Under the pieces are notes generated by a model. The model was not told where the DNA came from. It saw nothing but the letters and a program-made list of their open reading frames with translations, and did no database searches. The position numbers and the translations under genes are program-made. Shown here in pieces: positions 2 to 4,018 of a stretch of 4,018 nucleotides of DNA. The DNA lies in IMG/VR virus record IMGVR_UViG_2698536509_000023. One strand, 5' to 3'. The DNA is from a virus. Taxonomy: Duplodnaviria; Heunggongvirae; Uroviricota; Caudoviricetes. How positions within the stretch are numbered: position 1 is the first letter of the stretch; every line of letters begins with the position of its first letter.

Positions 2-316
2 GACTGGTGGCGCAACGGTCAGAACCTGTACCTGGACAATATGGAGGCGACTGGTTTTTACAGGATTTCCCTGCCTTCCGCACAGCCTGGCGATATCCTG
101 CTGTGCTGCTTTGGCGCATCGGTGGCCAATCATGCCGCCATATACTGCGGCAACGGTGAGCTGCTTCACCATCTGCCTGAACAACTGAGTAAACGGGAGA
201 GGTATTCCGAAAAATGGCAACGACGAACGCATTCTGTCTGGCGTCACCGCCACTGGCACGCATCTGCCTTCACGGGGATTTGCAACGATTTGGCCGCCGC
301 CTCAGCCTGTATGTGA
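2..316 (+). CDS. K: Phage tail assembly protein K, C-terminal portion (NlpC/P60-type peptidase region); 5' end lies upstream of the window
   Basis: The reading frame is open from position 2 (no stop in 2..40) to a TGA stop at 314..316. The translation (...DWWRNGQNLYLDNMEATGFYRISLPSAQPGDILLCCFGASVANHAAIYCGNGELLHHLPEQLSKRERY...) matches the C-terminal part of lambda gpK as I recall it, including the His-containing motifs typical of the NlpC/P60 peptidase end. Gene order K-I-J and an out-of-frame 3' overlap with I fit the lambda arrangement. The ATG at 41 in the ORF track is internal, not the true start. Confidence 0.85.
   Translation, partial: DWWRNGQNLYLDNMEATGFYRISLPSAQPGDILLCCFGASVANHAAIYCGNGELLHHLPEQLSKRERYSEKWQRRTHSVWRHRHWHASAFTGICNDLAAASACM
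195..202 (+). promoter_or_regulatory. Shine-Dalgarno-like element upstream of the I start codon
   Basis: GGGAGAGG at 195..202, 11 nt upstream of ATG 214. The spacing is longer than optimal, which would fit translational coupling with the overlapping K gene. Confidence 0.4.
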
Positions 317-894
317 ACACGGCAGCGGAAGCCATCCGGGCGCTGTCGTTACAGGTGCCGGGATTCCGCCGTCAGATGAACGAAGGCTGGTACCAGATAC
401 GTATTCGCGGTGAGGACACGGCACCGGAGGCGGTGTACGCCCGTCTTCACGAACCTCTGGGTGAGGGGGCGGTCATCCATATTGTGCCGCGACTGGCCGG
501 AGCCGGAAAGGGCGGACTGCAGATTGTGCTGGGGGCGGCAGCCATCGTGGGGTCGTTCTTCACGGCCGGGGCATCAATGGCGTTATGGGGTTCAGCCCTG
601 GCAGCCGGTGGTTTTTCTGCCACCACGATGCTGTTTTCACTGGGGGCCAGCATGATACTGGGTGGTGTGGCACAGATGCTTGCCCCGAAGCCAAAAACAC
701 CGGAATACAGGGCAACGGATAACGGCAGACAGAACACGTACTTTTCCTCGCTGGATAACATGATTGCCCAGGGGAACCCGATGCCGGTGCCTTACGGTGA
801 AATGCTGGTTGGCTCCCGGCGAATCTCCCAGGACATCAGTACCCGTGATGAAGGCGGTGACGGGAAGATGGTGGTTATCGGGCGGCAGGCATAA
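214..894 (+). CDS. I: Phage tail assembly protein I (lambda gpI family)
   Basis: A 226-aa ORF from ATG 214 to TAA 892..894. The N-terminus (MATTNAFCLASPPLARICLHGDLQRFGRRL...) and the C-terminal motif (...TDNGRQNTYFSSLDNMIAQGN...GEMLVGSRRISQDISTRDEG...VVIGR) closely resemble lambda gpI as I recall it. A purine-rich SD-like GGGAGAGG lies at 195..202. The gene sits between K and J as in lambda. Confidence 0.9.
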   Translation: MATTNAFCLASPPLARICLHGDLQRFGRRLSLYVNTAAEAIRALSLQVPGFRRQMNEGWYQIRIRGEDTAPEAVYARLHEPLGEGAVIHIVPRLAGAGKGGLQIVLGAAAIVGSFFTAGASMALWGSALAAGGFSATTMLFSLGASMILGGVAQMLAPKPKTPEYRATDNGRQNTYFSSLDNMIAQGNPMPVPYGEMLVGSRRISQDISTRDEGGDGKMVVIGRQA

Positions 895-936
895 AAGCGA
901 AAAAATCCCGCAGTGCTCACGGACAGGAACTGCGGG
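895..936 (-). terminator. Candidate rho-independent terminator reading on the minus strand
   Basis: A perfect 8-bp GC-rich inverted repeat, CCCGCAGT (907..914) pairing with ACTGCGGG (929..936), with a 14-nt loop. On the minus strand the hairpin is followed directly by ATTTTTTCGCTTTT (complement of 895..906). On the plus strand no T-run follows, so polarity is minus. Confidence 0.45.
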
Positions 937-1002
937 AGCGTTACGAAGATTGAGTGTAAGGAATTATTCTTATGTCACGACAAAAAACATTAACGCAGAG
1001 AA

Positions 1003-1030
1003 ATTATTAGCGCCACAGTCAGTTTGTGAA
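1003..1030 (-). promoter_or_regulatory. Putative sigma70-like promoter on the minus strand, firing leftward toward the 895..936 terminator
   Basis: Read on the minus strand: TTCACA (complement of 1025..1030; 5 of 6 matches to TTGACA), a 16-nt spacer, then AATAAT (complement of 1003..1008; 5 of 6 matches to TATAAT). The match is found by eye in AT-rich DNA, where chance promoter-like hexamers are common. Confidence 0.2.
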
Positions 1031-1067
1031 AATGTGAAGATATTCAGAATTTTTATTCAGTCATGAT

Positions 1068-1098
1068 ACAGGCATCCTCCGGGATGCCTGTTGTTTTT
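1068..1098 (+). terminator. Candidate rho-independent terminator / attenuator-like hairpin on the plus strand, just upstream of J
   Basis: A perfect 10-bp inverted repeat, ACAGGCATCC (1068..1077) pairing with GGATGCCTGT (1082..1091), with a 4-nt loop TCCG, followed by TGTTTTT (1092..1098). It lies 35 nt upstream of the J start codon. Confidence 0.5.
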
Positions 1099-1120
1099 GT
1101 GCGTAACAGTTATCACAGTA

Positions 1121-1132: not shown

Positions 1133-4018
1133 ATGGGCAAAGGTGGCGGCAAGGCGCACACGCCGGTAGAGGCAAAGGACAATCTTAAGTCCACGCAGAT
1201 GATGAGCGTGATTGATGCCATTGGTGAAGGGCCGATTGAAGGCCCGGTGAAGGGGCTGCAGAGTATCCTGGTGAACAAAACCCCGCTGACGGACACGGAC
1301 GGCAATCCTGTGATACACGGTGTGACCGCGGTCTGGCGCGCCGGGGAGCAGGAGCAGACACCACCGGAAGGCTTTGAGTCCTCCGGAGCGGAAACCGGAC
1401 TGGGCGTGGAAGTGACGAAGGCAAAGCCGGTAACGCGCACCATTACATCCGCGAACATTGACCGCCTGCGGGTCACCTTCGGGGTGCAGTCACTGTTGGA
1501 GACCACCTCAAAGGGCGACCGTAATCCCTCTTCTGTCCGACTGCTGATTCAGTTGCAGCGTAACGGTAACTGGGTGACGGAAAAGGATGTCACCATTAAC
1601 GGCAAGACCACCTCGCAGTTTCTGGCGTCGGTGATTCTGGATAATCTGCCTCCCCGCCCCTTTAACATCCGGATGGTCAGGGAGACGGCGGACAGCACCT
1701 CGGACCAGCTGCAGAACAGAACGCTGTGGTCGTCATACACCGAAATCATCGATGTGAAACAGTGCTACCCGAACACGGCGATTGTGGGGCTGCAGGTGGA
1801 TGCGGAGCAGTTCGGCGGTCAGCAGATGACGGTGAACTACCATATCCGCGGTCGCATCATCCAGGTGCCGTCAAACTACGACCCGGAAAAACGCACTTAC
1901 AGCGGTATCTGGGACGGCAGCCTGAAACCGGCATACAGCAACAACCCGGCCTGGTGCCTGTGGGACATGCTGACTCACCCGCGCTACGGCATGGGAAAAC
2001 GTCTGGGGGCGGCAGACGTGGACAAATGGGCGCTGTATGCCATTGCGCAGTACTGCGACCAGACGGTCCCGGATGGCTTCGGGGGCACAGAGCCGCGGAT
2101 GACCTTTAATGCATACCTGTCACAACAGCGTAAGGCGTGGGACGTTCTCAGTGATTTCTGCTCGGCGATGCGCTGTATGCCGGTATGGAACGGCCAGACG
2201 CTGACGTTCGTTCAGGACCGCCCGTCGGATGTGGTGTGGCCGTACACCAACAGCGATGTGGTGGTGGATGATAACGGCGTGGGGTTCCGCTACAGCTTCA
2301 GTGCCCTGAAGGACCGGCACACGGCGGTGGAGGTGAATTACACCGACCCGCAGAACGGCTGGCAGACCTCCACGGAACTGGTGGAAGACCCGGAAGCCAT
2401 ACTGCGCTACGGGCGCAACCTGCTGAAGATGGATGCGTTCGGTTGCACCAGTCGCGGTCAGGCCCACCGTGCCGGGCTGTGGGTGATAAAGACCGGACTG
2501 CTGGAAACGCAGACGGTGGATTTCACGCTCGGGTCACAGGGGCTGCGTCACACACCCGGAGACATTATTGAAATCTGTGATAACGACTATGCCGGGACCA
2601 TGACCGGCGGACGTATCCTGTCCATCGATGCCGCCAGCCGCACCCTGACACTGGACCGTGAGGTGACCCTGCCGGAGACAGGTGCCGCCACGGTGAACCT
2701 GATTAACGGCAGCGGTAAGCCGGTGAGCGTGGCCATCACTGCACACCCCGCGCCGGACCGGATACAGGTCAGCACCCTGCCTGATGGTGTGGAGACATAC
2801 GGTGTATGGGGACTCTCCCTGCCGTCACTGCGTCGTCGCCTGTTCCGCTGTGTCTCCATCCGGGAAAACACGGACGGCACCTTTGCCATCACGGCGGTGC
2901 AGCACGTACCGGAAAAGGAAGCCATCGTGGATAACGGGGCCAGCTTTGAGCCGCAGTCAGGCACCCTGAACAGCGTTATTCCACCGGCAGTGCAGCACCT
3001 CACGGTGGAGGTGAGCGCGGCTGACGGCCAGTATCTGGCACAGGCGAAATGGGACACGCCGCGGGTGGTGAAGGGGGTGCGCTTCAGTCTGCGACTGACC
3101 AGCGGAAGCGGAGAAGACAGCCGTCTGGTGACCACCGCCATCACTGCGGATACAGAGCATCGTTCCAGTGGTCTGCCGCTCGGGGAATACACCCTGACAG
3201 TCAGGGCAATTAACAGTTATGGCCAGCAGGGCGAACCGGCCACCACCACCTTCCGGATTAACGCGCCAGCAAAACCCGCCACCATTGAACTGACGCCGGG
3301 GTATTTTCAGATAACGGCGGTCCCGCGTCTTGCGGTGTATGACCCGACGGTACAGTTTGAGTTCTGGTTTTCGGAGACAAAAATCGCAGACACATCTCAG
3401 GTGGAAACCTCTGCCCGTTATCTGGGGACCGGCAGTCAGTGGAGTGTATCCGGCCCGCACATTAAGCCCGGGAAGGATTTCTGGTTTTACGTGCGCAGCG
3501 TCAATCTGGTGGGCAAGTCTGCGTTTGTGGAAGCCAGCGGGCAGGCCAGCAATGATGCAGAAGGGTATCTGGACTTTTTCAGAGGAGAAATAGGAAAAAC
3601 GCATCTGGCTCAGGGGTTGTGGGAACTGATAGATAACAGCCAGCTTGCAGATGAGATGGCGGAGATGAAGACCAGCATCACGGAAACCCGCAATGAAATC
3701 ACACAGACGGTCAACAAAACGCTGGAGGACCAGAGCGCCACCATACAGCAGATACAGCGCGTGCAGAAGGACACAAATGATGACCTGGCTGCGCTGTACA
3801 TGCTGAAGGTTCAAAAAACGAAAGACGGCATTCCCTATGTGGCCGGGATTGGTGCAGGGATTGAGGATACTGATGGCCAGCCACTGAGCAACATACTGCT
3901 GCTGGCTGACCGTATCGCGATGATAAATCCGGAGAACGGCAACAGCACGCCGTTATTTGTGGCGCAGGGGAATCAGCTGTTCATGAACGACGTGTTCCTG
4001 AAGCGGCTGTTTGCGGTG
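1133..4018 (+). CDS. J: Tail tip host specificity protein J (central tail fibre), N-terminal about 962 codons; continues past the window end
   Basis: The frame is open from ATG 1133 to the window end (2886 nt, exactly 962 codons, no stop). The translation begins [42 protein letters not shown]... and contains blocks highly similar to lambda gpJ as I recall it ([115 protein letters not shown]). An SD-like GGGTGAG sits just upstream. Confidence 0.95.

What the first reader, a model, noticed from the sequence alone, without database searches (positions are those of the whole stretch)
897..1030. Candidate antisense small RNA (about 100 nt) within the late tail operon
On the minus strand a promoter-like TTCACA-16 nt-AATAAT (complement of 1003..1030) would start transcription near 996. 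The 8-bp GC hairpin plus T-run (895..936) lies about 60 to 100 nt downstream on the same strand. Promoter, short body and intrinsic terminator together form a self-contained unit of roughly 100 nt that reads against the K-I-J message. Prophage-encoded sRNAs are known in enterobacterial prophages, and one placed between I and J could act in lysogens or modulate late gene expression.
Basis: inference. Interest (0 to 1): 0.55.

Follow-up and report, generated by a model that had tools for sequence, protein, structure and literature searches.

The report
Known prophage small RNA (PasB family)
The promoter-plus-terminator unit between tail genes I and J is real, but it is a diverged copy of a small regulatory RNA already found by experiment at this same spot in pathogenic E. 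coli prophages (PasB in EPEC, EcOnc22-24 in O157), so it is a correct call rather than a discovery.

Summary
Observation confirmed. On the minus strand a sigma-70-like promoter (TTCACA, 16 nt, AATAAT; 1030..1003) lies about 60 nt upstream of a 9-bp G+C hairpin plus U6 (937..900). This predicts a 97-nt RNA (996->900) that sits wholly inside the 238-nt I-J spacer.

The same spacer, strand and layout in EPEC E2348/69 encodes PasB, which was validated by northern blot, is Hfq-dependent and has RIL-seq partners. In O157 Sakai the I-J spacers of Sp15, Sp14 and Sp11 carry the Hfq-CRAC peaks EcOnc22/23/24 (~85 nt, destabilised in delta-hfq).

The window copy is about 70% identical to both. It shares the promoter, the 5' GCGUUA and U-run, an AAUCUUC core and an invariant terminator stem. 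Its body occurs in at least 652 of 5426 complete E. coli genomes and in many Stx1a/Stx2c phages.

The most likely mechanism is an Hfq-dependent trans-acting sRNA made from a prophage moron. A cis-antisense effect on the late transcript remains an untested extra.

This allele has no direct expression data, no covariation support and no Rfam family. Interest is low.

The parts
313..894 (+). Tail assembly gene I (context). The ORF is open from 214. The start at GTG 313 is taken from the RefSeq annotation of the identical O26 prophage.
900..996 (-). Predicted PasB-family sRNA of 97 nt. The 5' end G at 996 is inferred from the -10 position. The 3' end lies in the U-run at 905-900.
   Evidence: Homologues were detected experimentally.
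900..937 (-). Rho-independent terminator and likely Hfq-binding module. The 9-bp stem pairs 937-929 with 914-906, the loop is 14 nt and U6 lies at 905-900.
   Evidence: The 7-bp core stem is invariant in 14 alleles while the loop varies.
945..951 (-). AAUCUUC core of the block conserved across alleles (AUCUU is invariant; the first A is G in the PasB-type alleles and the final C is U in L054). It lies in the candidate seed region. The flanks (UUCCUUACACUC upstream, GUAACGCU downstream) differ between alleles.
   Evidence: Zhu et al. 2026 place the PasB seed just upstream of the terminator.
981..996 (-). 5' leader GCGUUAAUGUUUUUUG; a GCGUUA start and a U-run are kept, with single substitutions, in all alleles.
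1003..1008 (-). -10 hexamer AATAAT. Other alleles have TATAAT or TATCAT at the same place.
1025..1030 (-). -35 hexamer TTCACA with a 16-nt spacer. It is shared with EPEC PasB but not with the Sakai-type or L022-type alleles.
1030..1062 (-). Conserved upstream promoter region. It holds the invariant block CTTCACATTT (1039..1030) and an A/T-rich stretch that includes the palindrome GAATAAAAATTC (1058..1047). This may be an UP element or a regulator site.
1068..1101 (+). Terminator-like hairpin on the late-operon strand (10-bp stem, UCCG loop) followed by UGUUUUUGUG, just upstream of J. It is not part of the sRNA. It appears to be the ancestral I-J intercistronic element, and the sRNA cassette sits next to it.
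1133..4018 (+). Tail tip / host specificity gene J, which runs off the window (context).

Best explanation
The unit is a diverged allele of the prophage sRNA gene known as pasB in EPEC and EcOnc22/23/24 in O157 Sakai. It is a small moron inserted between tail genes I and J of lambdoid (including Stx-converting) phages.

Inferred mechanism: host RNA polymerase starts at about G996 on the minus strand, from a sigma-70-type promoter that is independent of the late promoter. It stops at the hairpin plus U6 at 937-900, giving an RNA of about 97 nt. By analogy with PasB and EcOnc22, the terminator hairpin and U-tail, together with the 5' U-run, bind Hfq. A pyrimidine-rich single-stranded stretch upstream of the terminator, around AAUCUUC, then base-pairs in trans with purine-rich sites in host and virulence mRNAs.

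Shown here: sequence homology, identical synteny and strand, and conservation of the promoter -10, the 5' leader, the core motif and the terminator.

Shown by others, for other alleles only: expression, size, Hfq dependence and RIL-seq partners.

Inferred for this allele: expression, Hfq binding, the seed and the targets.
For: Homology and synteny:
- The window spacer aligns over its full length with the EPEC I-J spacer. PasB maps there on the same strand, next to the stop of I.
- The predicted RNAs are 71% identical to PasB and 69% identical to the Sakai allele. All share the GCGUUA start, the U-run, the AAnAAnAA(C/U)UCC block, the (A/G)AUCUU core (AAUCUUC in most alleles) and the CCCGCAG...CUGCGGGAU6-7 terminator.

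Experimental support for other alleles:
- PasB gave a northern band, is Hfq-dependent and ranks 15th by RIL-seq interactions. It is the 3' partner in chimeras with bfpB, bfpI, ftsZ, galE, ler, perB and rplX.
- EcOnc22 is ~85 nt and is destabilised in delta-hfq. EcOnc22/23/24 fall in the I-J spacers of Sp15, Sp14 and Sp11 on the anti-tail strand.
- After calibrating the old-to-new Sakai coordinate offset with AgvB1 (+137 to +146), the peaks lie inside the predicted 91-nt RNA.

Conservation:
- The -10 is conserved 6 nt before the conserved start in 17 promoter variants, while the -35/-10 spacer diverges freely.
- The terminator core stem is invariant in the 14 alleles folded, with a hypervariable loop.

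Distribution and seed:
- The window-type body is found in at least 652 of 5426 complete E. coli genomes. The whole spacer is 100% identical in many Stx1a and Stx2c phages.
- PasB nt 49-58 (AUCUUCAUUU) is perfectly complementary to a 10-mer inside the bfpI RIL-seq window and to two 8-mers in ler.
Against: - There are no transcript data for this allele.
- The promoter match alone is no better than chance in number.
- There are no compensatory changes in any stem, and no 5' structure is conserved between alleles.
- Rfam has no model for the family, so there was no independent family score.
- The EPEC 5' end, annotated from read coverage, is 15 nt downstream of the TSS predicted from the -10.
- The link to EcOnc22-24 rests on a coordinate offset calibrated at 1.94 and 3.49 Mb, not at the loci themselves.
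- The seed analysis uses only five targets and has no formal statistics.
Confidence: 0.85

Rival explanations
1. The RNA is a cis-antisense regulator of the late tail transcript. During lytic growth it pairs perfectly with the I-J spacer of the late mRNA. It would either trigger RNase III cleavage or collide with late transcription, and so tune J relative to the upstream tail genes. This could be its main role or an extra role.
For: The RNA is fully complementary to 97 nt of the late transcript and is transcribed convergently with it. The cassette always sits at the same junction, next to a conserved hairpin on the late strand.
Against: - It overlaps no coding sequence or ribosome-binding site. 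The J Shine-Dalgarno sequence is more than 120 nt away.
- PasB was detected in uninduced lysogens, where the late operon is silent, and it forms Hfq chimeras with unlinked mRNAs.
- Related phages manage with a 60-nt spacer that lacks the cassette.
Confidence: 0.15
2. The unit is the leftover 3' end of a lost or exchangeable moron such as sodC. In this reading the hairpin is simply that gene's terminator, and the body is a former 3' UTR with no function of its own.
For: In O157:H7 and in many IMG/VR loci the same body (97-98% identical up to about window 1001) lies directly downstream of a minus-strand Cu/Zn superoxide dismutase gene in an 851-nt I-J spacer. There the window's promoter is replaced.
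Against: - Four allele classes without sodC keep a -10 at a fixed distance from a conserved start.
- Two of these classes are expressed as discrete Hfq-dependent RNAs.
- In the sodC variant, sodC has its own terminator hairpin upstream of the body.
Confidence: 0.07
3. The unit is a chance juxtaposition of a promoter-like and a terminator-like sequence in an A/T-rich spacer, and no stable RNA is made.
For: The counts of promoter-like and terminator-like sites in the window are within the shuffle expectation. There is no covariation.
Against: Both elements are conserved across alleles whose intervening sequence has diverged to about 70% identity. Homologous units are expressed in two pathotypes.
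Confidence: 0.03

Closest known systems
PasB (pathogenicity-associated sRNA B) of EPEC O127:H6 E2348/69, prophage PP6 (Pearl Mizrahi et al. 2021, PMC8550237; Zhu, Shabalina and Storz 2026, bioRxiv 10.64898/2026.05.13.724894)
   Same: - Same locus (I-J spacer) and same strand, with its 3' end about 5 nt from the stop of I.
- Homologous promoter: same TTCACA -35 and 16-nt spacing, and a -10 that differs by one base.
- Same 5' GCGUUA and U-run, same AUCUUC core and same CCCGCAG/CUGCGGG terminator with a U-tail.
   Different: - The RNA is only 71% identical, and the longest shared exact word is 16 nt.
- The stretches that flank the conserved core, where the seed is thought to lie, differ. The terminator loop is longer (14 nt against 11).
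- Expression, Hfq dependence and targets are known for PasB only.
- The published survey describes PasB variants as differing by a few nucleotides, so this allele may lie outside it. I could not check, because their alignments are images.
EcOnc22 / EcOnc23 / EcOnc24 of E. coli O157:H7 Sakai, prophages Sp15 (Stx1), Sp14 and Sp11 (Tree et al. 2014, PMC4104026, Table S2)
   Same: - Same I-J spacer and same strand.
- Same architecture and the same conserved blocks.
- An ~85-nt northern band against 91 nt predicted, and destabilised without Hfq.
   Different: - 69% identical to the window RNA.
- A different -35 region (TCCGGC / TTCCGG).
- No function or target has been reported.
- I found no paper that equates EcOnc22-24 with PasB. 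That equivalence is my inference from synteny, alignment and coordinate calibration.
AgvB / AsxR 'anti-sRNAs' of EHEC prophages (Tree et al. 2014; Rfam RF02702, RF02703)
   Same: These are also Hfq-binding sRNAs encoded by prophage morons. They come in several alleles with conserved and variable modules, and they act in trans in lysogens.
   Different: They lie downstream of PR' near the lysis genes, not in the tail operon. They are 51-60 nt long and act by sponging the core sRNAs GcvB and FnrS. No Rfam match was found in the window.
Lambda OOP RNA (classical phage cis-antisense RNA; named from general knowledge, not tested here)
   Same: It is a short phage transcript with its own promoter and intrinsic terminator, transcribed against a phage operon.
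   Different: OOP overlaps the 3' end of the cII coding sequence and acts in cis through RNase III. The window RNA overlaps no ORF, and its relatives have trans partners.

Membership tests
PasB / EcOnc22-24 sRNA family (I-J spacer sRNA of lambdoid prophages) | Encoded in the spacer between tail assembly gene I and tail tip gene J, on the strand opposite the tail genes, with its 3' end next to the stop of I | tested here: met
   Window RNA at 996->900; I stops at 894 and J starts at 1133. PasB lies at the equivalent place in NC_011601. The Sakai loci match too.
PasB / EcOnc22-24 sRNA family (I-J spacer sRNA of lambdoid prophages) | Sequence homology to the described RNAs over their whole length | tested here: met
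   71% identity to PasB and 69% to the Sakai allele in global alignments, with 43 invariant columns across 14 alleles. Homology is clear, but the divergence is larger than the 'few nucleotides' reported for PasB variants.
PasB / EcOnc22-24 sRNA family (I-J spacer sRNA of lambdoid prophages) | Own promoter homologous to that upstream of PasB | tested here: met
   The promoter region, including the -35 and the 16-nt spacing, is nearly identical to EPEC and JJ1887. The -10 xATxAT is kept in all 17 variants.
PasB / EcOnc22-24 sRNA family (I-J spacer sRNA of lambdoid prophages) | 3' Rho-independent terminator with a U-tail (Hfq-binding module) | tested here: met
   A 9-bp stem plus U6. The 7-bp core is invariant in 14 alleles.
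PasB / EcOnc22-24 sRNA family (I-J spacer sRNA of lambdoid prophages) | Accumulates as a discrete RNA of about 80-100 nt in lysogens | not testable with these tools
   Shown only for the EPEC allele (83 nt by coverage and northern) and the Sakai allele (~85 nt).
PasB / EcOnc22-24 sRNA family (I-J spacer sRNA of lambdoid prophages) | Binds Hfq, depends on it for stability, and pairs with trans mRNAs | not testable with these tools
   Published for PasB and EcOnc22. For this allele there is only the presence of a terminator with a U-tail and a U-run.
Cis-encoded antisense RNA (OOP-like) | Overlaps a coding sequence or translation start on the opposite strand | tested here: not met
   The RNA (900-996) lies wholly inside the non-coding spacer 895-1132. 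It is complementary only to the untranslated part of the late transcript.
Any Rfam 15 family (including AgvB, AsxR, STnc100, IsrK, DicF) | Covariance-model match | tested here: not met
   No match at E <= 1 in the window. No match in the Sakai I-J spacers at gathering score, although AgvB and STnc100 were recovered as positive controls.

The most novel reading that the evidence does not exclude
The I-J sRNA locus may be a modular, fast-swapping cassette. At least four allele classes are each present in hundreds of E. coli genomes: window type, PasB/PasB-2 type, Sakai EcOnc22 type and L022 type. They share the -10 and upstream promoter block, the 5' leader, an AUCUU core and the terminator, but they differ in the nucleotides that flank the core. 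Different Stx and lambdoid prophages, often several per cell, might therefore deliver different Hfq regulons.

On this reading the window allele is common in O26/O103-type STEC and in O157, where it is linked to sodC. It would be an uncharacterised regulator with its own target set. It might also act in cis on the late I-J transcript.
Probability: 0.3. Interest if true: 0.45.

Novelty: already known. Interest (0 to 1): 0.2.

Why it matters
The finding shows that a promoter-plus-terminator reading of raw sequence recovered a genuine, experimentally supported sRNA gene. GenBank and RefSeq annotation and Rfam still omit this gene.

- It ties together two names, PasB and EcOnc22-24, that the literature I could search treats separately.
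- It shows that the locus is allelic, with about 70% identity between classes. A BLAST survey seeded with the EPEC sequence may therefore undercount it.
- For STEC biology it flags a common, unstudied allele carried by Stx1a and Stx2c phages.
- None of this changes the basic picture of prophage-encoded Hfq sRNAs.

Tried and rejected
- Rfam search of the window at E <= 1 found nothing.
- A small protein inside the RNA: the only ORF with an ATG is 6 codons long (990..970) and is absent from other alleles. Rejected.
- A divergent plus-strand sRNA ending at the 1068-1101 terminator: there is no promoter-like site on the plus strand, and Tree et al. list no Hfq peak for the late-operon strand of the three Sakai I-J spacers. 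Rejected as unsupported.
- A conserved 5' secondary structure: the window's long-range 5' helix is not conserved in other alleles. RNAalifold keeps only the terminator.
- Unconstrained RNAduplex of the sRNAs against RIL-seq target windows gave biologically meaningless full-length duplexes. I replaced it with exact complementary-word mapping.
- A megablast count of the EPEC-type 5' body gave 39 genomes. This is an artefact of low-complexity masking plus the 28-nt word. The blastn search with the 83-nt PasB gives about 925 records at 95% identity or more.
- EcOnc54 (Sp6) was checked as a further candidate I-J sRNA and is not at an I-J junction.
- AgvB/AsxR were my first guess from memory, but they lie downstream of PR', not here.
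- The non-activating-condition RIL-seq partners of PasB, which are the majority, were not retrieved because of the look-up limit.

Full report
**What is in the window.** The window carries the end of a lambdoid tail operon on the plus strand. It holds the 3' part of K (a C40 peptidase), gene I (stop at 894), a 238-nt non-coding spacer (895-1132) and gene J from ATG 1133 to the end of the window. The annotation comes from the identical O26:H11 prophage. The spacer is 100% identical in many Stx1a- and Stx2c-converting phages and in prophages of non-O157 STEC such as O26:H11 and O103:H2.

**Checking the observation.**
- The consensus scan finds TTCACA-16 nt-AATAAT on the minus strand at 1030..1003 (10 of 12 matches). 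It is the only promoter-like -10 in the 4 kb, although the number of such sites is no higher than in shuffled sequence.
- The minus strand of 897-996 folds into a 9-bp G+C-rich stem (937-929 with 914-906), a 14-nt loop and U6 at 905-900, with MFE -26.9 kcal/mol and z = -2.9.
- Promoter, a 60-nt body and the terminator therefore predict a 97-nt RNA (996->900) that lies wholly within the spacer.

**What it is.** A literature search led to PasB, one of five 'pathogenicity-associated' sRNAs found by RIL-seq in EPEC E2348/69.
- Table S6 of Pearl Mizrahi et al. places PasB at NC_011601 1466343->1466261 on the minus strand. It is 83 nt long, lies in prophage PP6 between E2348C_1436 and _1437, and was probed with AATCCCGCAGTGATCGCGGAGCT.
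- In RefSeq those two genes are the tail assembly protein I (stop at 1466255) and gpJ (start at 1466496).
- The window spacer aligns with the EPEC spacer end to end. The promoter region is almost identical (TTCACA, 16 nt, TATAAT in EPEC). The terminator arm CACTGCGGGATTTTTT is identical, and the body has diverged.
- PasB was validated by northern blot, is unstable without Hfq and is more abundant in non-activating conditions. It is the 3' partner in Hfq chimeras with bfpB, bfpI, ftsZ, galE, ler, perB and rplX.

**A second, older sighting.**
- Table S2 of Tree et al. 2014 lists the homologous Hfq-CRAC peaks EcOnc22 (Sp15, the Stx1 phage; ~85-nt northern band; destabilised in delta-hfq), EcOnc23 (Sp14) and EcOnc24 (Sp11).
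- All three fall in I-J spacers of Sakai, on the strand opposite the tail genes.
- The published coordinates refer to the older Sakai sequence. I calibrated the shift with AgvB1, whose Rfam hit lies 137-146 nt above the published peak. STnc100/EcOnc06 gives a shift of at least 99 nt at 3.49 Mb.
- Shifts of 122-154 nt place each peak inside the 91-nt PasB-like RNA predicted in each spacer.
- I found no paper that equates PasB with EcOnc22-24. The PasB row of Table S6 has no EHEC homologue note, and the 2026 survey does not mention EcOnc. This equivalence is my inference.

**Comparative evidence.**
- I collected I-J junctions from 80 IMG/VR loci and 21 GTDB loci found with the I protein, plus three reference regions (O26:H11, EPEC and the window's own spacer), and extracted the spacers of the 83 loci that contain both genes.
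- Spacers of 235-260 nt hold the cassette in at least four allele classes: window type, PasB type, Sakai type and L022 type, plus recombinants.
- All of these share the invariant block CTTCACATTT and an A/T-rich stretch upstream of it. They also share a -10 of the form xATxAT exactly 6 nt before a conserved GCG/GCA, a 5' GCGUUA and U-run, AAnAAnAA(C/U)UCC, an (A/G)AUCUU core (AAUCUUC in most alleles), and CCCGCAG...CUGCGGGAU6-7 (with one stem mismatch in L076).
- The sequence between these blocks, the spacer between -35 and -10, and the terminator loop all vary freely.
- RNAalifold keeps only the terminator, with 7 invariant pairs and no covariation. No 5' structure is shared.
- The canonical -35 is present in the window and PasB types only.
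- Pairwise identity between allele classes is 69-77%.
- Among 5426 complete E. coli genomes, the window-type body is in at least 652, the Sakai type in at least 542 and the L022 type in at least 463. About 925 records carry PasB or PasB-2 at 95% identity or more. The first three counts are lower bounds.
- More distant lambdoids (I 62% identical or less) have spacers of 23-90 nt without the cassette. The cassette is therefore an insertion, that is, a moron.

**How it most likely works.** By homology this is an Hfq-dependent, trans-acting sRNA transcribed from its own promoter in lysogens.
- The terminator with its U-tail and the conserved U-run fit the usual Hfq-binding modules. This rests on general knowledge and on Ishikawa et al. 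2012, as cited by Tree et al.
- Zhu et al. place the PasB seed in the single-stranded stretch just upstream of the terminator.
- Consistent with that, PasB nt 49-58 (AUCUUCAUUU) is perfectly complementary to a 10-mer inside the bfpI RIL-seq window and to two 8-mers in ler. Nt 36-45 (CUCCUUCACA) match ler and perB. This is suggestive only, because it uses five targets and has no formal statistics.
- The window allele keeps AAUCUUC and UUCCUU but differs on both sides, so its targets may overlap with or differ from those of PasB. This is inference.
- A cis effect on the late I-J transcript is possible, since the RNA is fully complementary to it. No evidence supports this, and the RNA overlaps no ORF or ribosome-binding site.

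**Novelty and score.** The kind of element, the gene locus and its expression are already published. The exact allele is uncharacterised, and it is not annotated in the records inspected or in Rfam. I rate it 'already known', with low interest. The residual interest lies in the allelic, modular nature of the locus and in the unrecognised PasB = EcOnc22-24 link.

**Other observations.** These are listed under 'noticed in passing':
- a conserved terminator-like hairpin on the late strand before J;
- a sodC-containing version of the spacer in O157 that keeps the sRNA body but not its promoter;
- a 342-nt version that carries PasB-2;
- probable contaminant contigs in three non-enterobacterial assemblies.

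Noticed in passing
window 1068-1101 (+); also L085, L086, L088, L094 and L103 spacers: A terminator-like hairpin on the late-operon strand (10-bp stem, UCCG loop, then UGUUUUUGUG) sits just upstream of J. Equivalent hairpins with a CUCCGG-type loop and a U-run occur in the short I-J spacers of distant lambdoids (Shigella, E. ruysiae, Rahnella, Pantoea). Their stems differ (GGCAUCC, GGCACCC, ACCGCC, GGCCACC), so the pairing is kept through changes on both sides. It looks like an ancestral I-J intercistronic element whose role in a Q-antiterminated operon is unclear. It could be an insulator in lysogens or a stabiliser of the mRNA 3' end.
   Followed up: partly
L004 and other loci with 851-nt spacers; L104 (O157:H7 ATCC 43894) 1459-2309: In O157:H7 and many IMG/VR prophages the I-J spacer is 851 nt long and carries a minus-strand Cu/Zn superoxide dismutase gene (sodC). 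The window-type sRNA body and terminator are retained downstream of sodC at 97-98% identity. Homology stops at about window 1001, so the sRNA promoter and the late-strand hairpin are replaced. The body may be made as a sodC 3'-UTR RNA, or it may be silent.
   Followed up: partly
L116 (ST131 JJ1887) and L117 (O157:H7 Gim1-1) 447-788; L029, L031, L061, L083: A 336-343-nt form of the spacer carries a PasB that differs from the EPEC copy by one base at nt 27 in L116/L117 (probably 'PasB-2'; two bases in L029), with the same promoter. Its J-proximal part is unrelated and holds another hairpin, AAACCCCGGTATC...GATACCGGGGTTT.
   Followed up: partly
window 1025-1062 (-): The -35 hexamer at the canonical distance is not conserved between allele classes (TTCACA, TTCTGT, TCCGGC). 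A block 24 nt upstream of the -10 (CTTCACATTT, 1039..1030) is invariant, and it is preceded by the palindromes GAATAAAAATTC (1058..1047) and TGAATATCTTCA. This hints at activator or UP-element dependence. PasB is reported to be higher in non-activating growth.
   Followed up: no
L017 (IMG/VR), late-strand hairpin: One spacer is a recombinant whose crossover lies inside the hairpin loop (window-type arm CAGGCATCC with L022-type arm GGGTGCCTG). This gives a U-G pair on the minus strand but a C-A mismatch on the plus strand. It shows that the spacer is a mosaic junction.
   Followed up: no
L083, L087, L095 (genome contigs): Near-identical E. coli phage I/J sequences (91-98% protein identity) sit on short contigs of assemblies labelled Streptomyces flavalbus, Parendozoicomonas haliclonae and a Clostridiales MAG. 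These are almost certainly contamination or mis-binning.
   Followed up: no
NC_002695.2 against the coordinates in Tree et al. 2014 (L105-L109): Published EcOnc coordinates are shifted relative to the current Sakai RefSeq record, by about +137 to +146 at 1.94 Mb and at least +99 at 3.49 Mb. Taken at face value, EcOnc22-24 would fall on the J-proximal hairpin instead of the sRNA.
   Followed up: yes
window 311-316: The K stop and the annotated I start overlap (ATGTGA, with GTG 313 as the I start in RefSeq homologues). The I reading frame is open from ATG 214, inside K.
   Followed up: no
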